From assembly GCA_000004985.1 (NCBI GenBank), contig GG738850.1: a stretch of DNA of 64,000 bases; one strand, given 5' to 3'. Positions 3,001-63,610 of the stretch are shown piece by piece (the first letter of the stretch is position 1; the number at the start of each line of letters is the position of its first letter). Under the pieces are notes generated by a model, which was given only the letters and a program-made list of their open reading frames with translations, was not told the DNA's origin and did not search any database. Both the position numbers and the translations under genes were made by a program. This DNA comes from Naegleria gruberi. Lineage: Eukaryota.

Positions 3001-6000
3001 CATGTATCTTTTGCAATGCATGATCCTTGAGAGTTGCAAACTTTTGGATCAGTTGATAAAATGCCACTACATGAAAACTTTTCACAAGTGTCTCCTGAAT
3101 ATTGATCATTACATTTGCATCCACCAATATTTGTAGTTGCATTCAAGAAGCATTGACCTCTTCCGTTACAAACTTGTGCTTCCTTAGAGCTGTGAGAGTA
3201 ACAATACAAATTTTGACAAAGAGTCCCATTGTAAAAAACTTGTCCACCTTGAGAAATAGCACATTGACAAGTGTCAAGTGCAATACATTTACCACGACCA
3301 CCACATACATTTGTATCATTAGCTAAAAGTCCATTACAAATAGGGTATTGACAATTTTCACCACCATATCCTTTTTCACAATCACACTTTCCAGGAGAAG
3401 AACATAAGCCATGACCAGAACAAACACCAGTAGCATTGAAAGCAATACCAAAACAAGAGAATATTTCACACTTGTCACCATTATAATGTAGATTACAGGA
3501 ACAAACATTGGCAGCAGTACACACACCCCTTCCTGAACAAACTGTGGAGTCATTGGAAGGAATTGAATAACAAACAGGATATTGACAAGTATTTCCAGTA
3601 TAATTTTCTTTGCATGTACATNNNNNNNNNNNNNNNNNNNNNNNNNNNNNNNNNNNNNNNNNNNNNNNNNNNNNNNNNNNNNNNNNNNNNNNNNNNNNNN
3701 NNNNNNNNNNNNNNNNNNNNNNNNNNNNNNNNNNNNNNNNNNNNNNNNNNNNNNNNNNNNNNNNNNNNNNNNNNNNNNNNNNNNNNNNNNNNNNNNNNNN
3801 NNNNNNNNNNNNNNNNNNNNNNNNNNNNNNNNNNNNNNNNNNNNNNNNNNNNNNNNNNNNNNNNNNNNNNNNNNNNNNNNNNNNNNNNNNNNNNNNNNNN
3901 NNNNNNNNNNNNNNNNNNNNNNNNNNNNNNNNNNNNNNNNNNNNNNNNNNNNNNNNNNNNNNNNNNNNNNNNNNNNNNNNNNNNNNNNNNNNNNNNNNNN
4001 NNNNNNNNNNNNNNNNNNNNNNNNNNNNNNNNNNNNNNNNNNNNNNNNNNNNNNNNNNNNNNNNNNNNNNNNNNNNNNNNNNNNNNNNNNNNNNNNNNNN
4101 NNNNNNNNNNNNNNNNNNNNNNNNNNNNNNNNNNNNNNNNNNNNNNNNNNNNNNNNNNNNNNNNNNNNNNNNNNNNNNNNNNNNNNNNNNNNNNNNNNNN
4201 NNNNNNNNNNNNNNNNNNNNNNNNNNNNNNNNNNNNNNNNNNNNNNNNNNNNNNNNNNNNNNNNNNNNNNNNNNNNNNNNNNNNNNNNNNNNNNNNNNNN
4301 NNNNNNNNNNNNNNNNNNNNNNNNNNNNNNNNNNNNNNNNNNNNNNNNNNNNNNNNNNNNNNNNNNNNNNNNNNNNNNNNNNNNNNNNNNNNNNNNNNNN
4401 NNNNNNNNNNNNNNNNNNNNNNNNNNNNNNNNNNNNNNNNNNNNNNNNNNNNNNNNNNNNNNNNNNNNNNNNNNNNNNNNNNNNNNNNNNNNNNNNNNNN
4501 NNNNNNNNNNNNNNNNNNNNNNNNNNNNNNNNNNNNNNNNNNNNNNNNNNNNNNNNNNNNNNNNNNNNNNNNNNNNNNNNNNNNNNNNNNNNNNNNNNNN
4601 NNNNNNNNNNNNNNNNNNNNNNNNNNNNNNNNNNNNNNNNNNNNNNNNNNNNNNNNNNNNNNNNNNNNNNNNNNNNNNNNNNNNNNNNNNNNNNNNNNNN
4701 NNNNNNNNNNNNNNNNNNNNNNNNNNNNNNNNNNNNNNNNNNNNNNNNNNNNNNNNNNNNNNNNNNNNNNNNNNNNNNNNNNNNNNNNNNNNNNNNNNNN
4801 NNNNNNNNNNNNNNNNNNNNNNNNNNNNNNNNNNNNNNNNNNNNNNNNNNNNNNNNNNNNNNNNNNNNNNNNNNNNNNNNNNNNNNNNNNNNNNNNNNNN
4901 NNNNNNNNNNNNNNNNNNNNNNNNNNNNNNNNNNNNNNNNNNNNNNNNNNNNNNNNNNNNNNNNNNNNNNNNNNNNNNNNNNNNNNNNNNNNNNNNNNNN
5001 NNNNNNNNNNNNNNNNNNNNNNNNNNNNNNNNNNNNNNNNNNNNNNNNNNNNNNNNNNNNNNNNNNNNNNNNNNNNNNNNNNNNNNNNNNNNNNNNNNNN
5101 NNNNNNNNNNNNNNNNNNNNNNNNNNNNNNNNNNNNNNNNNNNNNNNNNNNNNNNNNNNNNNNNNNNNNNNNNNNNNNNNNNNNNNNNNNNNNNNNNNNN
5201 NNNNNNNNNNNNNNNNNNNNNNNNNNNNNNNNNNNNNNNNNNNNNNNNNNNNNNNNNNNNNNNNNNNNNNNNNNNNNNNNNNNNNNNNNNNNNNNNNNNN
5301 NNNNNNNNNNNNNNNNNNNNNNNNNNNNNNNNNNNNNNNNNNNNNNNNNNNNNNNNNNNNNNNNNNNNNNNNNNNNNNNNNNNNNNNNNNNNNNNNNNNN
5401 NNNNNNNNNNNNNNNNNNNNNNNNNNNNNNNNNNNNNNNNNNNNNNNNNNNNNNNNNNNNNNNNNNNNNNNNNNNNNNNNNNNNNNNNNNNNNNNNNNNN
5501 NNNNNNNNNNNNNNNNNNNNNNNNNNNNNNNNNNNNNNNNNNNNNNNNNNNNNNNNNNNNNNNNNNNNNNNNNNNNNNNNNNNNNNNNNNNNNNNNNNNN
5601 NNNNNNNNNNNNNNNNNNNNNNNNNNNNNNNNNNNNNNNNNNNNNNNNNNNNNNNNNNNNNNNNNNNNNNNNNNNNNNNNNNNNNNNNNNNNNNNNNNNN
5701 NNNNNNNNNNNNNNNNNNNNNNNNNNNNNNNNNNNNNNNNNNNNNNNNNNNNNNNNNNNNNNNNNNNNNNNAAATTGGATTATCATACTCATATATATCA
5801 ACTGAACTCCCTAACATCACAGTCAGAGCTCTCGGATCATGTTCTCTGTCCCTAATATGATTCTTATCAAACGGTATATTTGGGATCTTGACAACTCTAG
5901 TAGAATCTTCAACAATTACAATATCACCATTAGGTAAAAAATCCATAAATTTACAAGGAAATAAAGATTTTGATGGAATAAAGTTGTCGTAAACATATCC

Positions 6001-7974
6001 CATGTTTCTATCTTGCCATGCATCCTCCCCATGTATATAACCAGCAACAGTGGAAACAATACCATCATTTCCTATTTTTCTAATTCTGCACTGATATCCA
6101 TTTGATGTCATTATATGCATCTCCAAAGAAGTTGGAGAAAACCCAATGTACCCATTTACTATCCTTTCTCCTGCCATTTGGAATGAGGATATATCTGAAC
6201 CATCTCCACATTTATCTTTGAAAGGACACACAGTGAAATTTCCCATCACCATTGAAATTTGATCATTTTGAATTTTTCTTATGACAACATAGGAAGTCCA
6301 GCTTTCAAAAATGTACAAGACCTTTTCAATTGGATGAATTGTCATTGACAAAACATTTCCCAAACAAGCATTCACTCTCTTGACACTATTGACACTATAG
6401 TCAGCTATTTCACATCCAACCTTTAATCTCCCTGCAAAGTGATCTATTTTGCCGGACTCTGCATACACAATTCTCAACACGTTTTTTCCATTATATATAC
6501 TGTAAAATACGATATCATTATTTGGAAGTCTGATGGTCTTGGAGCTCGAATCAAAATTTAAATATGCATTTGTAGCTAGACCTCCAATACCTCCATAGTC
6601 AATATTCATTTGAACATAATCATAGATTCCTTTTCCAGCAATTTTTGAAATGGTATTGGTTGTCAAGTCTATTGCTTTAAGCGAATAATCATCCTAACAA
6701 CCATATAAGGATTAATACTAGATAATACTTACTGAAACAAATAGTTCATTTAATTGAAGATTAAACTGCTTTGAACTAATACCAGAATAATTAAAAGGAA
6801 TACCAGTACCATAATAATCACGGGTAGAGCTCCCAATATACATCTCCACCTTTCTGAATGGATCATTAATATCAGCTTTAAGAATTCCCATGTTCATAGA
6901 TCCCAATATAATTGTATTGTTTGAAATACTGAAGGATGCAATGCTATTGCGATCGTTAGCTATAGCAGGATAACATGAAATTAGATCCTTGTCCACATAA
7001 TACATTTTCCCATCTTGTTTTTCGTATTTGAATAACCCATTCTTTGTCACAATAAAGAAACTGCCACTTTTCTCTTCTGCAAAGATAACTTTTGGCTGGT
7101 CATCAAACATATAAAAATTGTTCGCTAAAGCACTATGTCCATAATACACATAATTAGATACTTTGGTATTGGGTGAACTTATTACTGATACATATTCTGA
7201 GGTGCCATTCTTCAATCTAACAACCCCGCCATTACCAGAACTCATCGAATTCATTTGGACCGCCATACCCAAATAATAGTCACCATTACTTGTCCTATAA
7301 ATTGACTTTGGGAACTTTGTCTCACCAAAATCATCTCTATAACTACCAAATGCTCCAAACAAGGTGGAAATTAATCCAGTTCTCTTGTCAATCATTTTTA
7401 CAGAGTGATTATCATAATCACAAATGATAATGCTATCTGTTTGAGAGTCGTAAAACACTTCAGATGGATTGCTCAAACCACTATATATGGCAAGAACATA
7501 ATTTCTGGATCCTTTAGTGCCTGNNNNNNNNNNNNNNNNNNNNNNNNNNNNNNNNNNNNNNNNNNNNNNNNNNNNNNNNNNNNNNNNNNNNNNNNNNNNN
7601 NNNNNNNNNNNNNNNNNNNNNNNNNNNNNNNNNNNNNNNNNNNNNNNNNNNNNNNNNNNNNNNNNNNNNNNNNNNNNNNNNNNNNNNNNNNNNNNNNNNN
7701 NNNNNNNNNNNNNNNNNNNNNNNNNNNNNNNNNNNNNNNNNNNNNNNNNNNNNNNNNNNNNNNNNNNNNNNNNNNNNNNNNNNNNNNNNNNNNNNNNNNN
7801 NNNNNNNNNNNNNNNNNNNNNNNNNNNNNNNNNNNNNNNNNNNNNNNNNNNNNNNNNNNNNNNNNNNNNNNNNNNNNNNNNNNNNNNNNNNNNNNNNNNN
7901 NNNNNNNNNNNNNNNNNNACAAGGTATGCTAAGAAAACCTTATTGTGTTGCGTTGAATTCATTTTTTTAGCCAT
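1..7974 (-). CDS. Giant secreted or adhesion-type protein (gene A), partial at its 3' end. Exon 1 spans 7974-6733 and contains N-gap 7524-7918. A 39-bp intron at 6732-6694 runs GTAAGT...TTAG. The terminal exon spans 6693-1 and continues past the window start, with a frame break across N-gap 3622-5771. Domain order: NHL-like beta-propeller, then at least 9 tenascin-type EGF repeats (~3610-2700), then Ser/Thr-rich REJ/PKD-like modules (~2500-1).
   Basis: The minus-strand ATG is at 7974 (MAKKMNSTQHNK...). NHL-type repeats include GKGIYDYVQMNIDYGGIGG... and GNDGIVSTVAGYIHGEDA. Manual translation of the minus strand from 3610 down shows repeated C-x-C-x-G-Y/W-x-G-x-x-C EGF units, for example CSGRGVCTAANVCSCNLHYNGDKCE. 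The minus-strand frame stays open to position 1 and ends ...LSTNKLYKSDFSSLSIHNG. The donor GTAAGT lies immediately after ...NELFVS, and the reading frame re-opens after TTAG with DDYSLKAIDLTTNTISK. Confidence 0.6.
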
Positions 7975-8246
7975 CTTGCTCCAGTCATGCCTGCTTTGAG
8001 CATTAAGGTTTTCCCTCTCGAATCTACACTGAGCGAAAATGGAAGTATTTGTTTCATTTTGCTTCAGGTATCTTCAGGTATCTTCACTCGCAGAGTTAAA
8101 TTTGCTCAAATTAGGACTAATGAACCGTATATTCTTACAAATTTGGAATGGATGAACCCAACTCACCGCGTGATGTTGTTGGCTTTTGTTGATTGGGTCT
8201 ATTGACGATTAAAGAACCAACCAACACAATACCAAACTGAAAAACA
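7975..8246. promoter_or_regulatory. Short divergent intergenic region (272 bp) between two head-to-head NHL/EGF genes. It is presumably a bidirectional promoter and contains the direct repeat GTATCTTCAG/GTATCTTCAC at 8067-8086.
   Basis: Gene A starts at 7974 on the minus strand and the next gene starts at 8247 on the plus strand. The spacer is AT-rich and has no convincing ORF. Confidence 0.35.
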
Positions 8247-10858
8247 ATGAAACCATTAAGGTATGCTCGCTTAATAGCTGCACTTATTATAGCACTATTG
8301 TTTTTCACTCAATACCATGTTGATTCAGTGCAAGGAGCTACCACCACATGTTTTGGCCTAGCTAGCACCAATGCATTGGTATGTTCAGGTTACGGAAGAT
8401 GTTCAGCCACAGATGTGTGCACATGTAACGAGGGTTACTATGGTAATTCTTGCAACAAGCAATATAGAATTACATCTCGAACAACAGTATTTGGTAAGAA
8501 AGGAGAAATAGGTAGCTATTATAAAGGATTGATTTTTAGTAGTACAGGATATGGTATTTCAGATGTTGAAGGAGATGAATTTCTATACTATATTGATGAA
8601 TCTCGTGTCCGTAAATTGAACATGAACACTGGTATTTCTAGTAGTACTCGTATGGGCGTTCCAGATCCAGACCGTTCTTATGCCATCTCAAACATTAAAT
8701 GTGTGCAAAGAAAAGGGAAAAAATTCTGCTATGCCATTCAAGACATCTCCTCTGTGTCGGTTTTCATATTTGGTCCAGACAGTTCGATTATGTATAACAC
8801 ACCATTCCAATATTCAGTTACAGTTCAATACGATCCGGTTCGTGACTGTCTCTTTTTGTATAGTAGAACAACACTTTACCAACTCACAAACCTGGACAAT
8901 TTTAATGGAACTAACTGGTCAGTGTATATCAAATCAGTACCCACAGATTATAGTTGCTTTACTGTTACTACCAATGGTGATTTGCTTTTTTGTGATTCTA
9001 CTTATAAAAATCTTGTCAAACTCAAACAAGATGGTACCAAAACCACTCTGGCCACTGGAATGAACCATTATAAGGGAATGTACATTTCAAATTATAATGA
9101 AATATTCTGGTATGAAAAGGGATTTATGAAGAAATTTGATGGTACCACTTTCAAGACTGTAATGACTTTAGATTGTTCTGATTATGCAGAGTTTGGATTG
9201 GGAAGAGAAAACAACACATTTTACCAAATAGATAATAATGTGATTGAAAAACTAGTTTATGGATTGACTTGTGTTGATAATAGGTGGAAAGGTGATAATT
9301 GTGATGAAGTTGCTCTGTTTTGCAATTCTGTCCCATTCAATGACTCGAAAGTTTGCTCTGGACATGGTAGTTGTCAAACTGGAGAAGTGTGCAATTGTAA
9401 CTATGGTTATACTGGTACTGACTGCGAGTCACTCATAATTACATGTTTTGGAGCAAGGGCTAGTAATGGAGGTGTTTGTAGTGGTAGGGGAAAATGCATT
9501 GCAAATGACACTTGTGTTTGTAATGATGGGTATTATGGAAATAACTGTCATGTTGACACTTGTTTTAATATTTTAGGAAATAGTTCCAGTGTTTGCAGTG
9601 GTAATGGTTATTGCAGAGGAACAGATAATTGTATTTGTTATGATGGATTTGCAGGCCCACTATGTAATAATACAGTTAGTACAGGAATTACATCATTTAA
9701 AGTTTCAGATTTTAACTTTCCAATGCCTAGAGGAAAGTTTGTTTCAAACGAATCACATTTGATTTATCATGACGAAACAACCCTAGAAGTGCTGGCAATT
9801 TCTTTTCAAACCAAGGCTGTTAGTTTACTAGGTTACTTTACTCAATCAACAGTAGAAGAAATGCGCTATTACAATGGAATAGTCTATTTTATTGATAGTA
9901 CCAAGAGTTTGAGATTTCTTCCAGAGGGAGGATTTACCCAAAAAATTACTGGTTCTATTACTGGTGCTTCCTATTTGAAAACTGCAACAACGTATGGAAC
10001 TTTCACAGGTGAAATTCAAACCTTTCAAGTTTGTTCACAAGGAATTATATTTGTGGAGCAAAATACTGGTAAAATTTTTAAATTGGTCTTTGATTACAAA
10101 ACAGGAGAAACTCAATTTTTTCACATTGCTGGTAAAGGTTATACAGAATCTGGAAAATCATGGAGTTTTAGCAATGGTAATGGAAAGCCGTTAGATGCTA
10201 CACTTGGGTACATTAATTCTCTTCTCATCAATGACAATGGTGATTTATTTATGGTGGATACAACCAATCATGTTATACGTCAGTTTAACCTATTAGGAAC
10301 CTCAACAATTGCGACAACAGCTGGTGTAGGTACATCAAAGGGATATTCTGGAGATGGTAAGAGTGCAAAATCATCCTTATTGAGTTTAAATCTCAATTCC
10401 ACACTATTGCACTACAATGGTGCCTTAATGTTCTTTGATGGAGGAAATAACCTTATAAGAAAGGTACTGAATGGAATCTTGTACGATGTTGCAGGTAGAC
10501 AGACCCTTGGAGGAGCTGCAACAATTGGTTTGGACAATACCAAAACAAGTCTTTTACTCACCAATCTTTTCAAGACTTCTCAAGGAGATATTGTCTTTAA
10601 GGACACGACAGGAAAATACATGGCTTTGGATATTTCTTTGAAATGTGCTGAAGGATTTACTGGAAGTAAGTGTGATGAGCCATTGAAATGTGGTGGAAGA
10701 TCCTTCTTGGATCCAAATGTTTGTTCTAAAAGAGGTCCGTGTCTTTCTACAGGAGTATGTGATTGCCCTTATGGTTGGACTGGAGATAGTTGTGAATTTG
10801 CTATCTGTTTCAATGTTGCTGCTAATGATGCTTCAGTTTGTGGGGAAAGGGATCTTGT
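8247..10858 (+). CDS. Secreted EGF/NHL-repeat protein, truncated at its 3' end by the 50-N gap. It has a signal peptide, two tenascin-type EGF repeats, a beta-propeller-like region, five EGF repeats, an NHL-repeat region, and further EGF repeats.
   Basis: The ATG at 8247 opens MKPLRYARLIAALIIALLFFTQYHVDSVQG, a signal peptide. EGF units include CSGYGRCSATDVCTCNEGYYGNSC and CSGHGSCQTGEVCNCNYGYTGTDC. An NHL-like block reads IAGKGYTESGKSWSFSNGNGKPLDATLGYINSLLINDNGDLFMVDTTNHVIRQFN. The frame is open for 2.6 kb up to the gap. The TQTQ/PKPK continuation in the ORF track is just a translation of the hexamer repeat. Confidence 0.65.
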
Positions 10859-10908
10859 NNNNNNNNNNNNNNNNNNNNNNNNNNNNNNNNNNNNNNNNNN
10901 NNNNNNNN

Positions 10909-11230
10909 AAACCCAAACCCAAACCCAAACCCAAACCCAAACCCAAACCCAAACCCAAACCCAAACCCAAACCCAAACCCAAACCCAAACCCAAACCCAA
11001 ACCCAAACCCAAACCCAAACCCAAACCCAAACCCAAACCCAAACCCAAACCCAAACCCAAACCCAAACCCAAACCCAAACCCAAACCCAAACCCAAACCC
11101 AAACCCAAACCCAAACCCAAACCCAAACCCAAACCCAAACCCAAACCCAAACCCAAACCCAAACCTGACATGGGATCCAAACCCAAACTAAAAATAGAAT
11201 TCTTCTAAACCCAACGTTCAAACCCTAACC
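10909..11230. repeat. Telomere-like hexamer array (AAACCC)n, about 43 perfect copies (10909-11165). G-strand is TTTGGG. It is followed by degenerate copies (AAACCTGA..., AAACCCTAACCC).
   Basis: Perfect tandem AAACCC units are read directly in the sequence. The C-rich strand is on the plus strand. Confidence 0.9.
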
Positions 11231-11680
11231 CAAAATTATAAACTTATTCAAATATCATTAAATTTTATATCATTCGATAGCTAATGATGAGTAGAACAAC
11301 ATGGTATATTTAGTTTTTCAATTTATAAAATATTAACTTTGTAAATAATGTCAGATTAAAATTTCTAAAATGAAACTATAGGAAGAATGATAAGTACAAA
11401 ATCCTTTAATGAGATTATATAGTCTATATCATCATTAACAACATTCATAATCACTTTCATATAAAATTTCAAAAGTTCATGTCTGTAGATATAAAAGTAT
11501 CAAGTGAAAAGGGAAGATGTGAGGTAAAAGAGGTCAACTATAACTTTTGAGTTTCTCATCAAAACATATTGAATCCTGACATGATAATGTTCCATTTGAT
11601 GATTAAACATCGAATATCAAATTTATTTTGACTTTCATATCTAAAGATTTCTTCCCTCAATCACATATTGTCAACTTGTA

Positions 11681-11799
11681 TGAAAAGGTGGAAATCTTGA
11701 TAAAGGACCACCTATTGAAACTTTACCAACATGATGTAGATGATCTATAATGATATAGAATTCAATTTCATGTCCTAATAATCAGAAATGGTACCATGG
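11681..11799 (+). repeat. Copy 1 of a ~115-bp dispersed element 'R' (GAAATCTTGA[T/A]AAAGGACCACCTATTGAAACTTTACCAACAT...). It is about 90% identical to the copy at 14833-14946 and runs into N-gap 11800.
   Basis: Direct comparison of 11681-11799 with 14833-14946. The preceding unique stretch 11340-11680 also shares degenerate blocks with 14950-15400 (CTATAGGAAGA, TCCATTTGATGA, GATTTATTTTAACTTTCATAT). Confidence 0.8.
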
Positions 11800-14307
11800 N
11801 NNNNNNNNNNNNNNNNNNNNNNNNNNNNNNNNNNNNNNNNNNNNNNNNNNNNNNNNNNNNNNNNNNNNNNNNNNNNNNNNNNNNNNNNNNNNNNNNNNNN
11901 NNNNNNNNNNNNNNNNNNNNNNNNNNNNNNNNNNNNNNNNNNNNNNNNNNNNNNNNNNNNNNNNNNNNNNNNNNNNNNNNNNNNNNNNNNNNNNNNNNNN
12001 NNNNNNNNNNNNNNNNNNNNNNNNNNNNNNNNNNNNNNNNNNNNNNNNNNNNNNNNNNNNNNNNNNNNNNNNNNNNNNNNNNNNNNNNNNNNNNNNNNNN
12101 NNNNNNNNNNNNNNNNNNNNNNNNNNNNNNNNNNNNNNNNNNNNNNNNNNNNNNNNNNNNNNNNNNNNNNNNNNNNNNNNNNNNNNNNNNNNNNNNNNNN
12201 NNNNNNNNNNNNNNNNNNNNNNNNNNNNNNNNNNNNNNNNNNNNNNNNNNNNNNNNNNNNNNNNNNNNNNNNNNNNNNNNNNNNNNNNNNNNNNNNNNNN
12301 NNNNNNNNNNNNNNNNNNNNNNNNNNNNNNNNNNNNNNNNNNNNNNNNNNNNNNNNNNNNNNNNNNNNNNNNNNNNNNNNNNNNNNNNNNNNNNNNNNNN
12401 NNNNNNNNNNNNNNNNNNNNNNNNNNNNNNNNNNNNNNNNNNNNNNNNNNNNNNNNNNNNNNNNNNNNNNNNNNNNNNNNNNNNNNNNNNNNNNNNNNNN
12501 NNNNNNNNNNNNNNNNNNNNNNNNNNNNNNNNNNNNNNNNNNNNNNNNNNNNNNNNNNNNNNNNNNNNNNNNNNNNNNNNNNNNNNNNNNNNNNNNNNNN
12601 NNNNNNNNNNNNNNNNNNNNNNNNNNNNNNNNNNNNNNNNNNNNNNNNNNNNNNNNNNNNNNNNNNNNNNNNNNNNNNNNNNNNNNNNNNNNNNNNNNNN
12701 NNNNNNNNNNNNNNNNNNNNNNNNNNNNNNNNNNNNNNNNNNNNNNNNNNNNNNNNNNNNNNNNNNNNNNNNNNNNNNNNNNNNNNNNNNNNNNNNNNNN
12801 NNNNNNNNNNNNNNNNNNNNNNNNNNNNNNNNNNNNNNNNNNNNNNNNNNNNNNNNNNNNNNNNNNNNNNNNNNNNNNNNNNNNNNNNNNNNNNNNNNNN
12901 NNNNNNNNNNNNNNNNNNNNNNNNNNNNNNNNNNNNNNNNNNNNNNNNNNNNNNNNNNNNNNNNNNNNNNNNNNNNNNNNNNNNNNNNNNNNNNNNNNNN
13001 NNNNNNNNNNNNNNNNNNNNNNNNNNNNNNNNNNNNNNNNNNNNNNNNNNNNNNNNNNNNNNNNNNNNNNNNNNNNNNNNNNNNNNNNNNNNNNNNNNNN
13101 NNNNNNNNNNNNNNNNNNNNNNNNNNNNNNNNNNNNNNNNNNNNNNNNNNNNNNNNNNNNNNNNNNNNNNNNNNNNNNNNNNNNNNNNNNNNNNNNNNNN
13201 NNNNNNNNNNNNNNNNNNNNNNNNNNNNNNNNNNNNNNNNNNNNNNNNNNNNNNNNNNNNNNNNNNNNNNNNNNNNNNNNNNNNNNNNNNNNNNNNNNNN
13301 NNNNNNNNNNNNNNNNNNNNNNNNNNNNNNNNNNNNNNNNNNNNNNNNNNNNNNNNNNNNNNNNNNNNNNNNNNNNNNNNNNNNNNNNNNNNNNNNNNNN
13401 NNNNNNNNNNNNNNNNNNNNNNNNNNNNNNNNNNNNNNNNNNNNNNNNNNNNNNNNNNNNNNNNNNNNNNNNNNNNNNNNNNNNNNNNNNNNNNNNNNNN
13501 NNNNNNNNNNNNNNNNNNNNNNNNNNNNNNNNNNNNNNNNNNNNNNNNNNNNNNNNNNNNNNNNNNNNNNNNNNNNNNNNNNNNNNNNNNNNNNNNNNNN
13601 NNNNNNNNNNNNNNNNNNNNNNNNNNNNNNNNNNNNNNNNNNNNNNNNNNNNNNNNNNNNNNNNNNNNNNNNNNNNNNNNNNNNNNNNNNNNNNNNNNNN
13701 NNNNNNNNNNNNNNNNNNNNNNNNNNNNNNNNNNNNNNNNNNNNNNNNNNNNNNNNNNNNNNNNNNNNNNNNNNNNNNNNNNNNNNNNNNNNNNNNNNNN
13801 NNNNNNNNNNNNNNNNNNNNNNNNNNNNNNNNNNNNNNNNNNNNNNNNNNNNNNNNNNNNNNNNNNNNNNNNNNNNNNNNNNNNNNNNNNNNNNNNNNNN
13901 NNNNNNNNNNNNNNNNNNNNNNNNNNNNNNNNNNNNNNNNNNNNNNNNNNNNNNNNNNNNNNNNNNNNNNNNNNNNNNNNNNNNNNNNNNNNNNNNNNNN
14001 NNNNNNNNNNNNNNNNNNNNNNNNNNNNNNNNNNNNNNNNNNNNNNNNNNNNNNNNNNNNNNNNNNNNNNNNNNNNNNNNNNNNNNNNNNNNNNNNNNNN
14101 NNNNNNNNNNNNNNNNNNNNNNNNNNNNNNNNNNNNNNNNNNNNNNNNNNNNNNNNNNNNNNNNNNNNNNNNNNNNNNNNNNNNNNNNNNNNNNNNNNNN
14201 NNNNNNNNNNNNNNNNNNNNNNNNNNNNNNNNNNNNNNNNNNNNNNNNNNNNNNNNNNNNNNNNNNNNNNNNNNNNNNNNNNNNNNNNNNNNNNNNNNNN
14301 NNNNNNN

Positions 14308-14832
14308 AACCCAAACCCAAACCCAAACCCAACCCAAACCCAAACCCAAACCCAAACCCAAACCCAAACCCAAACCCAAACCCAAACCCAAACCCAAACC
14401 CAAACCCAAACCCAAACCCAAACCCAAACCCAAACCCAAACCCAAACCCAAACCCAAACCCAAACCCAAACCCAAACCCAAACCCAAACCCAAACCCAAA
14501 CCCAAACCCAAACCCAAACCCAAACCCAAACCCAAACCCAAACCCAAACCCAAACCCAAACCCAAACCCAAACCCAAACCCAAACCCAAACCCAAACCCA
14601 AACCCAAACCCAAACCCAAACCCAAACCCAAACCCAAACCCAAACCCAAACCCAAACCCAAACCCAAACCCAAACCCAAACCCAAACCCAAACCCAAACC
14701 CAAACCCAAACCCAAACCCAAACCCAAACCCAAACCCAAACCCAAACCCAAACCCAAACCCAAACCCAAACCCAAACCCAAACCCAAACCCAAACCCAAA
14801 CCCAACCCAAACCCAAACCCAAACCCAAACCT
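14308..14832. repeat. Second telomere-like array (AACCCA)n, about 87 copies, in the same orientation as the first. It contains occasional AACCC 5-mer variants and ends with the identical junction CCCAAACCTGA.
   Basis: Read directly from the sequence. Both arrays end ...AAACCCAAACCTGA. Confidence 0.9.
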
Positions 14833-14946
14833 GAAAGGATGAAATCTTGAAAAAGGACCACCTATTGAAACTTTACCAACATTATGTAGATGATCTATAA
14901 TGATGTAGAATTCAATTTCATATCATAAGAACAAGAAATGGAACTG
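14833..14946 (+). repeat. Copy 2 of element R, immediately abutting the second array.
   Basis: See copy 1. Confidence 0.8.
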
Positions 14947-15530
14947 TAGGAAGATAATGGTTGACTTTATAAGGTTGACTTTAAGGATTGACAGGTCAGA
15001 TCAAGTCTATCAAATACATCACTTCAATCAACAAAATATACATGAAAATGCTCCATTTGATGAGTAGAGATAGAATATTTGATTTATTTTAACTTTCATA
15101 TTCATGATTTCATCCCTTTCATACCATCTAGTCAACTATGGACATGGATGAATTTCTGGAAAATGACTACTCTACGAAACATCACCATCATGTTCTACAT
15201 CTCTAATAATATATATGGTTCAGTTTACAGACATTATGGTGAATATTCTATCATTCAGTAAGGTAAAGGGTGAAATTTCAAGGTTGTCTTGGAAGATCAG
15301 GAGGAAATGTTGAATATAGAGAACAACATCCTCAATCTACAAAATACATATCAATCGATTGGAAATCAATAGTAAATCTCGAAAATATAATTTATTTTAT
15401 GTTTTGAAATCTCTCCTTGACCTCTTTTAGTCAATTAAGACAATTAAGGATGACACTATAGGAAAAGTTACCAATCTCATAATAAATGATAATATCGTGT
15501 TCTACATCTCAAATAAAGTGGACTTTCTTC
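14947..15530. repeat. Degenerate satellite-like or subtelomere-like repeats. The internally repeated ~23-mer ATC[A/G]TGTTCTACATCTC[T/A]AATAA occurs at 15186 and 15495, and several blocks are shared with 11340-11680.
   Basis: Self-similarity was found by eye. There is no credible ORF. The 60-aa ORF at 15079-15261 and the EESPLYLRCRTRYYHLL tail at 15477-15530 lie inside these repeats. Confidence 0.55.
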
Positions 15531-17753
15531 ANNNNNNNNNNNNNNNNNNNNNNNNNNNNNNNNNNNNNNNNNNNNNNNNNNNNNNNNNNNNNNNNNNNNN
15601 NNNNNNNNNNNNNNNNNNNNNNNNNNNNNNNNNNNNNNNNNNNNNNNNNNNNNNNNNNNNNNNNNNNNNNNNNNNNNNNNNNNNNNNNNNNNNNNNNNNN
15701 NNNNNNNNNNNNNNNNNNNNNNNNNNNNNNNNNNNNNNNNNNNNNNNNNNNNNNNNNNNNNNNNNNNNNNNNNNNNNNNNNNNNNNNNNNNNNNNNNNNN
15801 NNNNNNNNNNNNNNNNNNNNNNNNNNNNNNNNNNNNNNNNNNNNNNNNNNNNNNNNNNNNNNNNNNNNNNNNNNNNNNNNNNNNNNNNNNNNNNNNNNNN
15901 NNNNNNNNNNNNNNNNNNNNNNNNNNNNNNNNNNNNNNNNNNNNNNNNNNNNNNNNNNNNNNNNNNNNNNNNNNNNNNNNNNNNNNNNNNNNNNNNNNNN
16001 NNNNNNNNNNNNNNNNNNNNNNNNNNNNNNNNNNNNNNNNNNNNNNNNNNNNNNNNNNNNNNNNNNNNNNNNNNNNNNNNNNNNNNNNNNNNNNNNNNNN
16101 NNNNNNNNNNNNNNNNNNNNNNNNNNNNNNNNNNNNNNNNNNNNNNNNNNNNNNNNNNNNNNNNNNNNNNNNNNNNNNNNNNNNNNNNNNNNNNNNNNNN
16201 NNNNNNNNNNNNNNNNNNNNNNNNNNNNNNNNNNNNNNNNNNNNNNNNNNNNNNNNNNNNNNNNNNNNNNNNNNNNNNNNNNNNNNNNNNNNNNNNNNNN
16301 NNNNNNNNNNNNNNNNNNNNNNNNNNNNNNNNNNNNNNNNNNNNNNNNNNNNNNNNNNNNNNNNNNNNNNNNNNNNNNNNNNNNNNNNNNNNNNNNNNNN
16401 NNNNNNNNNNNNNNNNNNNNNNNNNNNNNNNNNNNNNNNNNNNNNNNNNNNNNNNNNNNNNNNNNNNNNNNNNNNNNNNNNNNNNNNNNNNNNNNNNNNN
16501 NNNNNNNNNNNNNNNNNNNNNNNNNNNNNNNNNNNNNNNNNNNNNNNNNNNNNNNNNNNNNNNNNNNNNNNNNNNNNNNNNNNNNNNNNNNNNNNNNNNN
16601 NNNNNNNNNNNNNNNNNNNNNNNNNNNNNNNNNNNNNNNNNNNNNNNNNNNNNNNNNNNNNNNNNNNNNNNNNNNNNNNNNNNNNNNNNNNNNNNNNNNN
16701 NNNNNNNNNNNNNNNNNNNNNNNNNNNNNNNNNNNNNNNNNNNNNNNNNNNNNNNNNNNNNNNNNNNNNNNNNNNNNNNNNNNNNNNNNNNNNNNNNNNN
16801 NNNNNNNNNNNNNNNNNNNNNNNNNNNNNNNNNNNNNNNNNNNNNNNNNNNNNNNNNNNNNNNNNNNNNNNNNNNNNNNNNNNNNNNNNNNNNNNNNNNN
16901 NNNNNNNNNNNNNNNNNNNNNNNNNNNNNNNNNNNNNNNNNNNNNNNNNNNNNNNNNNNNNNNNNNNNNNNNNNNNNNNNNNNNNNNNNNNNNNNNNNNN
17001 NNNNNNNNNNNNNNNNNNNNNNNNNNNNNNNNNNNNNNNNNNNNNNNNNNNNNNNNNNNNNNNNNNNNNNNNNNNNNNNNNNNNNNNNNNNNNNNNNNNN
17101 NNNNNNNNNNNNNNNNNNNNNNNNNNNNNNNNNNNNNNNNNNNNNNNNNNNNNNNNNNNNNNNNNNNNNNNNNNNNNNNNNNNNNNNNNNNNNNNNNNNN
17201 NNNNNNNNNNNNNNNNNNNNNNNNNNNNNNNNNNNNNNNNNNNNNNNNNNNNNNNNNNNNNNNNNNNNNNNNNNNNNNNNNNNNNNNNNNNNNNNNNNNN
17301 NNNNNNNNNNNNNNNNNNNNNNNNNNNNNNNNNNNNNNNNNNNNNNNNNNNNNNNNNNNNNNNNNNNNNNNNNNNNNNNNNNNNNNNNNNNNNNNNNNNN
17401 NNNNNNNNNNNNNNNNNNNNNNNNNNNNNNNNNNNNNNNNNNNNNNNNNNNNNNNNNNNNNNNNNNNNNNNNNNNNNNNNNNNNNNNNNNNNNNNNNNNN
17501 NNNNNNNNNNNNNNNNNNNNNNNNNNNNNNNNNNNNNNNNNNNNNNNNNNNNNNNNNNNNNNNNNNNNNNNNNNNNNNNNNNNNNNNNNNNNNNNNNNNN
17601 NNNNNNNNNNNNNNNNNNNNNNNNNNNNNNNNNNNNNNNNNNNNNNNNNNNNNNNNNNNNNNNNNNNNNNNNNNNNNNNNNNNNNNNNNNNNNNNNNNNN
17701 NNNNNNNNNNNNNNNNNNNNNNNNNNNNNNNNNNNNNNNNNNNNNNNNNNNNN

Positions 17754-20543
17754 CCAAGCTTTCTTCAACAGATTTCCCTTTGGTATTTGTTGTGCTCTAT
17801 CAGTCATCCAAATTTGATAGTCCTGATGGTCTAAAGGTACTGTGGTGGTCTGGAGTGAGCATTGATGTTCTTCAAATATTCTATCATATTTCTCTCTTTC
17901 ACATAATTGTCTCAAAATGACTTCATTATTGTTCACCCGCACAGAATAATCCTTTTCATACTCCTTCTTCTTCTTGTTGCTCAACCTTTGTGGTTGACAA
18001 TACATAAAGGTATCTGGTATTACCGTTGAGAGAAATAATATTCTAAGTTTACGGAACAATACTTGAGCCAATAACTTATCTTCTTGTCCTATTTCTATTG
18101 TCGACCTAGGACCTTCAATGGGAGAGACAGCAAAGATATTCAACAATAAATTCTTATTATCTTCAATATCATCACCAAGCTCTTTCACAAATTTGAAGCC
18201 ACTAACTTTAAAGTGCTCTGTGTAGTCTCTGGTGTTGGAGAGAAGTGAATTATAGAAAGTATGTGTATGTCCACCACCCTTGCTGGAACCCTTTATAATG
18301 GTGTCTGCTTCATCAACATGACTACTTTCGAATGCTTGAGTTTCAAATACTTTAACATGACCAACTCTTTCTCGCAAGGAAACAATATGTTTCACCAATA
18401 TGTGAGCATACCATGATTTACCTGGAAACCCATGAACAGCTGCAACATAAACAGCCCAAAATTTGTTACCTGAGTCAAGAATTTGATTATTTGGTTTGTC
18501 ATAATCAATATTATGTAGGAAGTCGCGTAATGACTCCCATAAAACCTTTGTCTTCTCATTTTCGAAATGAGGAGACAATGTATTACTGTTGTCAAGAAGA
18601 ATATTACCTGTGTTGCCTAGAAGAAAGACTCTCACTTCATTCCATTCCTCATCTTCAACTTTGTTCAAATCTTCAAGACCTTTGATACCACAAACACACT
18701 CCCAAAATTCTTCCTTCTTCCTAACACCACATAAAGTTATTCTTAAAACATTTCACAAAGCCGTTCTTTTGCATGAAGGATACATATTATAATGTTGGAT
18801 GCAGGTAATCCAAGGATACAACCAAGATTTAAATTTGTTCTTGGCTTGTGGTTTTTACAACAGATTGGAAAAGAAATGTTGCAAAATGGACACCATGAAT
18901 CTTGTTTCACTCCAGGACAAACAACACCCAAGGCCTTTAAATCCATTGTCAAGAATACATCAATACTACAATGATACGAATCAATGGAAATACCATGTTT
19001 TCTGATTATTTCAATTTCATTCTTGAAATGATCAGCAATATGTGTCAATTCTGATTCGTCTCCCTTCCAGGCAGCCAAAGGAACACACACAACCCGAGAA
19101 TGACCCAACCCAAAACACTTACTGTTAATAACAGTAATGGTTAATGTTGTTAATTTAGAATTTGCAGCATAATCAAGATTTAGGGCAACTATTAAATCTT
19201 TAAAGTTCATGTCATCTTCCTTACACAATGATCGTTTCTTCTTCTTCATCCAACCAATCCACTTTTAATACATAACAACATACGGTAGGAAGAATGGAAT
19301 GGTATATGATGTTTCTATTTTCTCCAATTGATTTAAGTTTCACGTTAAATATATCTGCACACAATACATCTGTTGTCGATTGAGTTTGTTGTAAGGTTCC
19401 TGAGGGAAGTAAATCTTTCACTTTTCCTTCCAATCTGAATTCATCAACTGTGCCTTTAGAAACCAGTCTTCTATTTTTAACTAAGGTTTGTTTTAAGGCT
19501 ATTTCTGTTACCTTATTGGAGTGTGAAGGCTTTCGAACTTTCTTTTTTTTTACCTTTTTTGATTTTGGTTGAGCCAATTCTTTTTCTCTTTTTCTCTTTT
19601 GACTCGCTTCCCACTGTTTATCTTGTATTGAGCTAAGTTCATTATATTCTTTTTGAAACAATTTTTTCTCAGGTTTTTTTCTTGTCTCAGGTTGAATGGG
19701 TGCGGTTAATCCTTCTTCCTCCATACGTCTATTATCTAACAAACCCTTTCTTTTTAAAAGCCCCAAAAAGGAGTACAAATCTCGGAATCCCTCTGCCTTA
19801 CTAATTAAATCATGCCCAACAAGTTTTTGTTTCAAAATCTTCTTTCTTTTAAGGTTGGCACTTGAAGAAACATTTTCCTCATAATTGGTGAATTTGTAAG
19901 ATATTTTGTTTGTGACAATTGAATTATCAAGATTAACAAATCCAAAATGTTCTGAAATATCAATATAATATCTTTTTAATCCGTTTTCCTCAATTACTAT
20001 CCTATCTTTCTTTCCAATTCCATCATCATTGGGTATCTGAGTGGATTTGGAGTATTGTTCTGCAATTCTTTTTAGGAATTGTTGTTCTTTTGTTGGGTTT
20101 TTGGGTTCTTCTGTAGTTGTAGAAATCTCAACATCATTATTTTGGGAGGAATGATGACATGAATTTTGGGAGGAATGATGACATGAATATGTTTGTGGAT
20201 TAGGATAACTCATATTACCATTATTTTGAGAGGAGTAATGACATGAATTTTGAGAGGAGTGATAATATGAGTTAGGATAGATTGGTGAATTGTATGAATT
20301 TTGAAAGAAGGTTGGATGATATGAATTTTGAGAGGAGTGATGACATGAATATGTTTGTGAGTTGTAAAGTGGGACGGTGGAAAATGGTGGTATTATATAG
20401 TCCTGTGAAGCTTGAGGATAATTGTTGGTATGAATGAATGGAGAGTATTGTGAATGGTATTGTTGATGATTTTGGTGTTGGTAATGTGTATCTTCTATTG
20501 ATTCATCCAATGATAAACAATCATGCCAGTCACTTTCTGACAT
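17754..20543 (-). pseudogene. Large minus-strand gene of unknown function, read as three consecutive ORFs separated by two apparent single-nucleotide frameshifts at ~19221-19249 and ~18743-18760. Segments: 20543-19221, 19249-18743, and 18668-17754 running into N-gap. It is either a pseudogene or an assembly indel artefact, and the 3' end lies inside the gap. The N-terminus is Q/H/S/Y-rich and low-complexity with SCHHSSQNS repeats. This is followed by a Lys/Arg-rich block and a Cys/His cluster (H-x3-H ... C-x2-C), and then a region with an HGFPGKSWY motif and an HVDEAD motif.
   Basis: Both junctions keep two frames open across the overlap: ...DWLDEEEETIIV* versus MKKKKRSLCKEDD..., and ...HAKERLCEMF* versus ...NVLRITLCGVRKKEEFWECVCGIKGLEDLNKVEDEEW. 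A 1-nt indel at either junction would fuse them into one ORF of more than 900 aa. No family was recognised. GFPGKS is one residue short of a canonical Walker A motif. Confidence 0.4.
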
Positions 20544-20601
20544 TTCTTTTAAAAATTTGAAAACCGTTACATTTAAAAACTGTTATTTATTATTCAAATT
20601 T

Positions 20602-21285
20602 CTAGAAAAATGTAAATTCATCCTCATCTTCGTATTTAATCTTTGTGTCGTAGCTGAAATGCATTGTTATTTCATTTGATTCCGTATCCATAATAAAAGA
20701 AATACTGTTGACTTCCAATAAATATAGTGTTCTAATGTATGTATCATCTTCCATTTGTGTGGTTGAACTAATTACTTGACGTCCCCAGTTTTCAAAAATG
20801 TCTAACATTGGAAGAATAGATTGAAATCTATACCCAAAACATGGTACCTTGTATTTAATTCCATGTCTATTGATGGTTCTGTCTGAATGGAAAAATTTAG
20901 CACCTTCCATGGCTTCAAATATTACTTGGAAAACCTCAGTTTCTAAACAACCACAGCTAATGTAGTTTCTCTTATGAATGCCACCTAGTTTGAGTAATCT
21001 ATTAACCTTCACACGAGCACACTTGGAAAATAATTGGAAGGATCTAACTACAAATTGTTGTTCTTCATCACAAAGATCACCATAACCATGGGAGAGTGCT
21101 TGGATTTTAGGTAGGCCGTGTTCAATAATAATATCTTTAAAGTAAGTTTCTTCTTTACGTTGTTGTACAAGTTGGGCATTAACAGGTGTAGTGTTTGATG
21201 AAGAGTCAACGTCCATCATAGCCACATCGTCAATGGTACCTTCTTGAATGACAGTGGTGGAAGTATACTTGTATTGAGTGTTCAT
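20602..21285 (-). CDS. Hypothetical 227-aa protein, single exon, intact ORF.
   Basis: ATG at 21285 (MNTQYKYTSTTVIQEG...), TAA stop, moderate codon bias, no recognisable domain. Confidence 0.45.
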   Translation of the reverse strand: MNTQYKYTSTTVIQEGTIDDVAMMDVDSSSNTTPVNAQLVQQRKEETYFKDIIIEHGLPKIQALSHGYGDLCDEEQQFVVRSFQLFSKCARVKVNRLLKLGGIHKRNYISCGCLETEVFQVIFEAMEGAKFFHSDRTINRHGIKYKVPCFGYRFQSILPMLDIFENWGRQVISSTTQMEDDTYIRTLYLLEVNSISFIMDTESNEITMHFSYDTKIKYEDEDEFTFF

Positions 21286-21717
21286 TGTTTAGTTATTGTT
21301 TTTTGTTTTGTTTGTTGGTAGCCAGAGGGTAATGTTGCGAGACATTTTATAGGTTTTTTTTTTGTAAGAAAAATCATCATTTTCCACAGCCTCTCCTTTC
21401 GCAGGCCATTAAAAATGATGGTTGCTAAATTGTAGTGTGATGTAGGTGAGTTGTTATTGTATTTTTTTAAGATTCCTTAAATGAACCTTAATACAGTACT
21501 GACTCCAACTGACAAGAGTAAGTGCTTCCGCTCCTACAAAGAATATTCAATATTACCCACTTTATATTTAATAAATTATACAATATCTTGATAATTATAT
21601 GAACAATACATGATTTTTATTGTCGGAATCATCACTAAATCATGCTACCCATCCAGAAATATCAAAGGGTACATTTCAATATCACTCTATTGTATGAAAG
21701 TGTATAAAACTCACCCA

Positions 21718-63560: not shown

Positions 63561-63610
63561 NNNNNNNNNNNNNNNNNNNNNNNNNNNNNNNNNNNNNNNN
63601 NNNNNNNNNN

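What the first reader, a model, noticed from the sequence alone, without database searches (positions are those of the whole stretch)
10859..15530. Two same-orientation telomere-like (TTTGGG)n arrays with identical junctions and a shared flanking element, internal to the scaffold
Arrays at 10909-11165 (~43 units) and 14308-14832 (~87 units) both present the C-rich strand (AAACCC) on the plus strand. Both end with the identical junction CCCAAACCTGA. Each is followed by a ~115-bp element R (11681-11799 and 14833-14946), which lies 465 bp after the first array and immediately after the second. The surrounding 11340-11680 and 14950-15530 stretches share degenerate blocks. This is the architecture expected of chromosome ends (telomere plus subtelomeric repeat). 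Here, however, the two units lie in tandem inside a scaffold and are separated by N-gaps. There are three candidate explanations:
- Two telomere-bearing contigs were misjoined by the scaffolder.
- These are genuine interstitial telomeric sequences from an ancestral fusion or duplication.
- This is the terminal-repeat structure of a telomere-associated mobile element.
TTTGGG is one of the Paramecium-type repeat variants. It is notable in a genome that otherwise uses the standard genetic code.
Basis: seen in the sequence. Interest (0 to 1): 0.7.

Follow-up and report, generated by a model that had tools for sequence, protein, structure and literature searches.

The report
Naegleria telomere contigs misplaced inside scaffold
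The two (AAACCC)n arrays are ordinary chromosome-end sequences (TTTGGG telomere plus subtelomeric repeat) of the amoeba Naegleria gruberi, carried on two read-sized contigs that the draft assembly dropped into a gap inside a scaffold, so the internal tandem arrangement is most likely an assembly artefact.

Summary
There are perfect (AAACCC)n arrays at 10909-11165 and 14308-14831. Element R is shared (108 bp, 91% identity), as is a second block (about 80% identity).

The window comes from the Sanger draft of Naegleria gruberi: the flanking gene is 100% identical to XP_002681275.1. TTTGGG was already proposed as this species' telomere repeat (Fulneckova 2013), so it is not a Paramecium-type oddity.

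Each array is the first base of a tiny contig (891 and 1224 bp) that begins right after a run of N. No read joins either array to sequence on its distal side. With the C-rich strand on + and the array at the left end, each array can cap only what lies to its right, not the gene on its left. That gene is cut off by the gap and lacks about 300 aa, including its membrane anchor. Its annotated last exon lies in the subtelomeric contig, across an "intron" that holds the gap and the whole array.

Contig B shows a degenerate subtelomeric repeat of about 308 bp.

Best reading (about 0.7): these are genuine chromosome-end contigs that were interleaved or misjoined by scaffolding. Real interstitial arrays, a haplotype-specific chromosome end and a telomere-targeted element cannot be excluded without reads. 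Interest is low.

The parts
8247..10858 (+). Left flank: teneurin-like NHL/EGF surface-protein gene (NAEGRDRAFT_63158, XP_002681275.1). Its open reading frame runs straight into the N gap.
   Evidence: 100% identity to P0001, 'predicted protein [Naegleria gruberi]'. Pfam EGF_Teneurin, EGF_2 and EGF_TEN. The N. fowleri homologue P0019 aligns only up to about residue 766-780 of 1091, so roughly 300 aa including the membrane anchor are missing.
10859..10908 (.). 50-N scaffold gap between the truncated gene and contig A.
   Evidence: A second 50-N gap at 63561-63610 suggests that 50 is a placeholder or minimum value (inference).
10909..11165 (+). Telomere array A: (AAACCC)42 plus AAACC, with the C-rich strand on +. 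It forms the first bases of contig A (10909-11799, 891 bp).
11166..11240 (+). Transition zone of degenerate telomere-like motifs proximal to array A (AAACCC x3, TAACCC).
   Evidence: Three of the 11 non-array AAACCC hexamers in the whole window lie at 11179-11225, where about 0.02 are expected.
11476..11550 (+). Spurious terminal exon of the NAEGRDRAFT_63158 gene model, inside subtelomeric contig A.
   Evidence: It translates to FMSVDIKVSSEKGRCEVKEVNYNF*, which is the C-terminus of P0001. The implied intron 10838-11475 contains the 50-N gap and the whole of array A.
11579..11676 (+). Block 2 of the subtelomeric unit, copy in contig A.
   Evidence: 79-82% identical to 15040-15137.
11681..11799 (+). 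Element R, copy A2. It runs to the end of contig A.
   Evidence: 90-91% identical to 14834-14944.
11800..14307 (.). 2508-N scaffold gap between contig A and contig B.
14308..14831 (+). Telomere array B: 87.7 units with the C-rich strand on +, including AACCC variants at 14308, 14331 and 14804. It forms the first bases of contig B (14308-15531, 1224 bp).
14832..14946 (+). Element R, copy B1, directly abutting array B.
15040..15137 (+). Block 2 of the subtelomeric unit, copy in contig B.
15138..15531 (+). Further degenerate units of the ~308-bp subtelomeric repeat: an R-like copy B2 at about 15138-15257 and a partial copy B3 at 15447-15531.
   Evidence: B1 vs B2 shows 70% identity over 84 bp (z = 5.2). 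A2 vs B2 gives z = 7.2 and B2 vs B3 gives z = 5.0. A 23-bp match at 91% identity is spaced 307 bp apart. The autocorrelation peak is at lag 308-309, z = 5.3.
15532..17753 (.). 2222-N scaffold gap between contig B and the large right-hand contig.
17754..21285 (-). Right flank: a conserved three-gene block with no known domain. The gene nearest the gap lacks only about 26 codons at the gap edge.
   Evidence: 45% identity to N. fowleri FDP41_009403 residues 82-341 of 367. Collinear with N. fowleri L001 7735-11104. No Pfam hit.

Best explanation
The two arrays are genuine telomerase-type telomeric repeats of Naegleria gruberi: (TTTGGG)n on the G strand, shown here as (AAACCC)n. Each is joined to a piece of subtelomeric DNA built from a degenerate unit of about 308 bp that contains element R.

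They sit on two read-sized contigs from the 2010 Sanger draft assembly. Each contig begins within the telomere tract because nothing lies beyond it.

The scaffolder placed these two chromosome-end contigs one after the other inside a hole of about 6.9 kb (10859-17753) between a truncated surface-protein gene and the next large contig. There are two ways this could have happened, and I cannot separate them. Either mate pairs tie the contigs to the right-hand contig, which would then be the true start of a chromosome, making the join to the left part a misjoin. Or mate pairs in repeated subtelomeric DNA led to misplacement.

Shown: the repeat, its polarity, its position at contig starts, the organism, the truncated gene and the artefactual gene model. 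Inferred: that the internal position is not physical.
For: 1. Organism. The flanking ORF is 100% identical to a N. gruberi predicted protein on a 707,703-bp scaffold.
2. Motif. TTTGGG was identified in silico as the candidate N. gruberi telomere from its position and orientation in the assembly (PMC3622300).
3. Array quality. The arrays are 100% and 99% perfect, unlike decayed interstitial tracts.
4. Position. Both arrays are the very first bases of 891-bp and 1224-bp contigs that follow N runs. Array A is only 257 bp, shorter than a Sanger read, yet no read extended it into non-telomeric DNA on the distal side.
5. Polarity. With the C-rich strand on + and the array to the left of its unique flank, each array caps sequence to its right. 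A telomere capping the left-hand gene would read (TTTGGG)n on +.
6. Truncated gene. The left gene is open up to the gap and lacks about 300 aa, including the membrane anchor present in homologues. This cannot fit in 50 N, and neither small contig has an ORF longer than 40 aa.
7. Gene model. The published model reaches a 24-codon exon in contig A through an 'intron' that holds the gap and the whole array.
8. Boundary zone. Degenerate telomere-like motifs follow array A, as at natural telomere/subtelomere boundaries.
9. Subtelomeric repeat. R and block 2 form a repeat of about 308 bp found nowhere else in the 64 kb.
Against: - No reads, mate pairs or second N. gruberi assembly could be consulted, so the physical arrangement was not tested.
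- A scaffolder normally needs several consistent mate pairs. Two telomeric contigs placed in the same orientation at one locus is therefore not random. It could reflect a real structure, or a real chromosome end next to the 17754+ contig.
- I could not check whether R or the junction occurs at scaffold termini elsewhere.
- The shared junction phase plus TGA (chance about 0.004) hints at a non-random relationship between the two ends that this explanation leaves open.
Confidence: 0.7

Rival explanations
1. The arrays are genuinely interstitial. The chromosome really contains gene - (AAACCC)n - subtelomere A - about 2.5 kb - (AAACCC)n - subtelomere B - about 2.2 kb - right-hand genes. This could arise by fusion of a chromosome end to an internal break, followed by duplication of the telomere/subtelomere module.
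For: The scaffolder put both contigs here in one orientation. The left gene is broken at exactly this point. Fulneckova et al. note that most genomes with terminal candidate repeats also show internal blocks longer than 100 bp in their assemblies.
Against: Neither array has sequenced unique DNA on its distal side. The arrays are perfect rather than decayed. End-to-end fusions give head-to-head arrays, not head-to-tail. About 113 kb of internal loci from N. fowleri and N. lovaniensis long-read assemblies hold no such array, though this is weak evidence because those loci are not orthologous.
Confidence: 0.12
2. The site is a haplotype-specific or otherwise real chromosome end. The right-hand contig (17754+) truly starts a chromosome, or one homologue of it. 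Contigs A and B are two variants of that end, and only the link to the left-hand contigs is wrong or belongs to the other homologue.
For: The polarity of both arrays fits a left chromosome end whose body lies to the right. Contig B abuts R without a transition zone, as expected after terminal loss and new telomere addition within the subtelomeric repeat, whereas contig A has a degenerate transition zone. The gene next to the gap on the right is almost complete.
Against: The R copies are only 91% identical, which is too divergent for simple alleles. Core genes (kinesin, CNOT1) follow within 18-30 kb, and the block is not near a contig end in N. fowleri (about 67 kb from the end of VFQX01000068.1). 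Neither point is decisive. There is no read evidence. This rival overlaps with the best explanation, since it is one of its two sub-cases.
Confidence: 0.1
3. The pattern reflects a telomere-targeted mobile element, in the manner of MoTeR in Magnaporthe, SART/TRAS in Bombyx or Athena in rotifers. Repeated insertion into, or addition onto, telomere tracts would give head-to-tail telomere-element modules, with the element body hidden in the gaps.
For: The arrays have the same orientation, share a flanking element R, and have the same junction phase plus TGA. The 2.5-kb and 2.2-kb gaps could hide coding sequence.
Against: There is no ORF longer than 40 aa in the sequenced parts, and no Rfam hit. 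Beyond the three shared bases the two junctions diverge completely: contig A has 515 bp of other sequence before R, and that stretch is only weakly R-like (z = 1.3-3.7, out of register by 23 nt). So there is no common element terminus. R belongs to a degenerate repeat of about 308 bp, which is typical of subtelomeric satellites. The R core is absent from the viral, metagenome and prokaryote collections.
Confidence: 0.05

Closest known systems
Candidate TTTGGG telomere of Naegleria gruberi (Fulneckova et al. 2013, Genome Biol Evol, PMC3622300)
   Same: Same species, same hexamer and the same draft assembly. That repeat was judged telomeric from its position and orientation relative to adjacent sequence.
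   Different: That survey gives only the motif and states that experiments are still needed. The junction sequences, the degenerate transition zone, element R and the ~308-bp subtelomeric unit described here are not reported in it (main text only; its supplement was not available).
Subtelomeric satellite repeats next to telomeres (general class, e.g. potato subtelomeric repeats, PMC3276127)
   Same: A tandem, degenerate unit of a few hundred bp lies directly proximal to the telomere tract, and the telomere joins it at different points at different ends.
   Different: Only about 2.3 units (contig B) and about 1.4 units (contig A) are sequenced here. Copy number, distribution over chromosome ends and any function are unknown.
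Paramecium-type telomeres (mixed TTGGGG/TTTGGG)
   Same: The TTTGGG hexamer.
   Different: The arrays here are pure TTTGGG: 126 of 130 units, with only shortened AACCC and AAACC variants and no CCCCAA. The organism is a heterolobosean, not a ciliate.
Interstitial telomeric sequences and telomere-targeted retroelement arrays (MoTeR, 10.1101/845669; SART/TRAS; Athena)
   Same: Head-to-tail telomere tracts separated by non-telomeric DNA.
   Different: There is no continuous sequence across either tract, no element ORF and no shared element terminus. The arrangement exists only across N gaps.

Membership tests
Telomerase-type terminal telomere repeat | Long, homogeneous tandem array of a short T/G-rich unit | tested here: met
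   42.8 and 87.7 units at 100% and 99% matches.
Telomerase-type terminal telomere repeat | G-rich strand runs 5'->3' towards the end, and the array is the outermost sequence | tested here: met
   At contig level, each array is the first base of its contig, with the C-rich strand on + and the unique flank to the right. True chromosomal terminality was not tested.
Telomerase-type terminal telomere repeat | Physically terminal on chromosomes (Bal31 sensitivity, reads ending in the array) and made by telomerase | not testable with these tools
   This needs reads or experiments. The literature calls it a candidate only.
Telomerase-type terminal telomere repeat | Same motif at other chromosome or scaffold ends of the species | not testable with these tools
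   The N. gruberi assembly could not be queried (look-ups failed). The feature is supported only by PMC3622300.
Interstitial telomeric sequence (ITS) | Array flanked on both sides by non-telomeric DNA in continuous sequence | tested here: not met
   The distal side of both arrays is an N gap.
Interstitial telomeric sequence (ITS) | Head-to-head orientation (fusion type) or sequence decay (ancient type) | tested here: not met
   Both arrays have the same orientation and are 99-100% perfect.
Telomere-targeted retroelement (MoTeR / SART-TRAS / Athena type) | Reverse transcriptase or endonuclease coding sequence in the element | tested here: inconclusive
   There is no ORF longer than 40 aa in the sequenced 634 and 700 bp, but 4.7 kb lies in gaps.
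Telomere-targeted retroelement (MoTeR / SART-TRAS / Athena type) | Same element terminus joined to the telomere tract in every copy | tested here: not met
   Only TGA is shared. After it the sequences differ, and R lies 0 bp from array B but 515 bp from array A.
Subtelomeric satellite | Tandem repetition of a unit adjacent to the telomere | tested here: met
   Lag 308-309 autocorrelation gives z = 5.3. In-register R-like copies B1, B2 and B3 give z = 3-5 among themselves. The block order is R -> block 2 in contig B and block 2 -> R in contig A. The support is moderate because the copies are 70-90% alike and few.
Subtelomeric satellite | Present at several chromosome ends | tested here: inconclusive
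   Two different telomere-adjacent contexts (contigs A and B) carry R at 91% identity.

The most novel reading that the evidence does not exclude
The head-to-tail arrangement telomere-subtelomere-telomere-subtelomere is physically real in N. gruberi. That would mean either that chromosome ends are built of stacked telomere/R modules (telomere capture, repeated healing, or a non-autonomous telomere-targeted element), or that one homologue is broken inside a surface-protein gene and joined to a chromosome end. The shared ...TCAGG-(TTTGGG)n junction would then mark a preferred site of telomere addition.
Probability: 0.1. Interest if true: 0.5.

Novelty: already known. Interest (0 to 1): 0.15.

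Why it matters
The practical value is small.

- It flags a probable scaffolding error in a 707-kb N. gruberi scaffold.
- It flags a wrong C-terminus in the gene model NAEGRDRAFT_63158.
- It gives two concrete telomere/subtelomere junctions and a subtelomeric repeat (R, unit of about 308 bp). These could serve as probes or as anchors for finishing chromosome ends in this model amoeba, whose telomere motif still rests on an in-silico call from 2013.

It does not reveal a new kind of element or an unexpected telomere type.

Tried and rejected
- N. gruberi assembly access. Exact-protein look-ups for the 440-aa ORF, P0001 and the 227-aa ORF found no record. As a result, scaffold coordinates, other scaffold ends and alternative assemblies could not be examined.
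- Collection scans. The 28-bp R core gave 0 hits in metagenome, prokaryote-genome and viral collections. The junction pattern (AAACCC)3AAACCTGA in metagenomes gave 16 hits. All are short tracts of 22-82 bp in unrelated, mostly GC-rich contigs, with no similarity to the flanks of contigs A or B.
- Looking for Naegleria chromosome ends. Fetching N. fowleri and N. lovaniensis loci through homologues gave only internal loci, at least 67 kb from any contig end and without TTTGGG arrays.
- Synteny. It is limited to the three-gene block and says nothing about the break.
- Other annotation. Rfam over 7919-22000 gave no hit. Pfam on the right-flank ORFs gave no hit.
- Literature. Liechti 2019 and Dereeper 2023 do not mention telomeres. 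The 2010 genome paper is not held, and the supplement of PMC3622300 is not held.
- Hypothesis that array A is also followed directly by an R copy, so that the junctions are homologous. Support is weak (z = 3.7, 2.6 and 1.3, with the register shifted by 23 nt), so this is left open.
- Ciliate/Paramecium origin. Rejected on the protein identity to Naegleria.
Full report
**What is in the sequence**

The region 10859-17753 is not continuous sequence. It consists of five parts:
- a 50-N gap;
- an 891-bp contig (A, 10909-11799);
- a 2508-N gap;
- a 1224-bp contig (B, 14308-15531);
- a 2222-N gap.

Contig A opens with 42 perfect AAACCC units plus AAACC (10909-11165). Contig B opens with 87.7 units (14308-14831). 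B has three AACCC variants, at 14308 (the first, cut unit at the contig start), 14331 and 14804. There is no G-strand array and no other telomere-like array in the 64 kb.

**The shared flank**

Element R is real. 11684-11791 matches 14834-14941 over 108 bp at 90.7% identity (E = 9e-39), and R has no other copy in the window. A second block, 11579-11676, matches 15040-15137 at 79-82% identity.

In contig A the order is block 2 then R. In contig B it is R then block 2. This is what a tandem repeat sampled in two phases looks like. Contig B indeed has an autocorrelation peak at lag 308-309 (0.407 against a mean of 0.289 over lags 20-419, z = 5.3). It also carries weaker in-register R-like copies at about 15138 and 15447 (z = 3-7 in pairwise tests).

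The flank is thus a degenerate subtelomeric repeat of about 308 bp. R begins 515-518 bp after array A, not 465 bp as the finding states.

Right after array A lies a zone of degenerate telomere-like motifs. Three of the window's 11 non-array AAACCC hexamers fall within 50 bp. Array B abuts R without any such zone.

**The 'identical junction'**

CCCAAACCTGA occurs only at the two array ends. Eight of its bases belong to the array. What is truly shared is the phase of the last unit and the next three bases. The conditional chance of that is about 0.004.

In contig B the TGA is the start of R. In contig A the following 120 bp are only weakly R-like and out of register by 23 nt (z = 3.7, 2.6 and 1.3 against three R copies). 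I leave this unexplained. It could be chance, common descent of the two ends, or a preferred priming site. On the G strand both junctions read ...TCAGG-(TTTGGG)n, so the terminal GG could pair with a telomerase template (inference).

**Whose DNA it is**

The ORF to the left (8247-10858) is 100% identical to XP_002681275.1 (NAEGRDRAFT_63158) of Naegleria gruberi, which lies on a 707,703-bp scaffold.

Fulneckova et al. 2013 searched this same assembly and named TTTGGG as the candidate telomere repeat of N. gruberi. They judged this from position and orientation, and they state that experiments are still required (PMC3622300). They also note that most assemblies with terminal candidate repeats show internal blocks as well.

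Later Naegleria long-read genome papers that I could read say nothing on telomeres. The motif is therefore neither a Paramecium signature nor a surprise. The arrays contain no TTGGGG units.

**Why the internal position is probably not physical**

1. Each array is the first base of its contig. Array A is only 257 bp, well within one Sanger read, yet no read carried it into non-telomeric DNA on the distal side.

2. With the C-rich strand on + and the array to the left of its flank, each array can cap only what lies to its right. A telomere closing the left-hand gene's chromosome would read (TTTGGG)n on +.

3. The left-hand gene is open right up to the gap.
   - It has a signal-peptide-like N-terminus but no membrane anchor.
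   - The N. fowleri homologue P0019 aligns up to about residue 766-780 of 1091, and then continues through more EGF repeats, a GPS motif and a transmembrane helix.
   - About 300 codons are therefore missing. They cannot fit in 50 N and are not in contig A or B, where no ORF exceeds 40 aa.

4. The published gene model reaches its stop codon through a 24-codon exon at 11476-11550 in contig A. The implied intron holds the N gap and the entire telomere array. This is an annotation artefact that follows from the scaffold.

5. The gene at the right edge (17754-19249, minus strand) lacks only about 26 codons. It belongs to a three-gene block that is collinear with N. fowleri. Ordinary genes follow it, including a kinesin and CNOT1.

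**What I could not settle**

The evidence fits two kinds of assembly error. In the first, contigs A and B belong to the end of the chromosome that starts with the 17754+ contig, and the join to the left contigs is a misjoin or a difference between homologues. In the second, they belong to other chromosome ends and were drawn in by mate pairs in repeated subtelomeric DNA.

The evidence also does not exclude a real head-to-tail interstitial structure or a telomere-targeted element hidden in the gaps. Against the mobile-element reading, there is no coding capacity in the sequenced parts, no common element terminus at the two junctions, and R has a satellite-like organisation.

All attempts to reach other N. 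gruberi sequence failed. Scans of the metagenome, prokaryote and viral collections gave nothing related.

**Verdict**

This is the known candidate telomere of N. gruberi plus an undescribed but ordinary subtelomeric repeat, sitting on two small contigs inside scaffold gaps. My confidence that the internal tandem arrangement is an assembly artefact is about 0.7.

A public Nanopore data set and reassembly of N. gruberi exist (PMC12695648) and would decide the matter in minutes.

Noticed in passing
window 10838-11550: The gene model NAEGRDRAFT_63158 (XP_002681275.1) ends in a 24-codon exon (11476-11550) inside the subtelomeric contig. Its implied intron contains a 50-N gap and a 257-bp telomere array. 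The real C-terminus (about 300 aa with more EGF repeats and the membrane anchor, judged from homologues) is missing from the assembly.
   Followed up: yes
window 17754-21285 (minus strand); L001 7735-11104: This is a three-gene block (227 aa, 440 aa, and 168+305 aa split by an intron). It has no Pfam domain and no N. gruberi protein in the database. It is collinear with N. fowleri at 38-73% aa identity (81% over one 42-residue stretch). The middle gene carries a 24-bp coding tandem repeat (20139-20350).
   Followed up: partly
L001 5722-9071 and 15062-17909 (N. fowleri VFQX01000068.1): Two tandem duplications of 1670 bp and 1419 bp are 100% identical, which makes the 212-aa gene appear several times. 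This is either a Nanopore assembly artefact or a very recent duplication.
   Followed up: no
window 1986-3620 (-), 8247-10858 (+), 21932-27226 (+): The window holds a cluster of teneurin-like surface-protein genes with EGF modules (an NHL-like part in the gene at 8247-10858, REJ domains in the ORFs at 21932-27226). Two of them run into N gaps (at 3622 and 10859), which suggests that repeated EGF modules hampered assembly.
   Followed up: partly
window 58519-59638: A 72-bp tandem repeat of 15.6 copies at 86% identity lies inside an ORF. It encodes 24-residue leucine-rich repeats (…MKQLTSLDIDNNQIGDEG…).
   Followed up: no
L003 1-86 (metagenome contig MDTB01074870.1): This environmental contig starts at its very first base with 13 AAACCC units followed by unrelated sequence. 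It is probably the chromosome end of another organism with a TTTGGG telomere.
   Followed up: no
window 10859-10908 and 63561-63610: Two of the six N gaps are exactly 50 N, while the others are 395-2508 N. This suggests that 50 is a placeholder or minimum value rather than a measured distance.
   Followed up: partly
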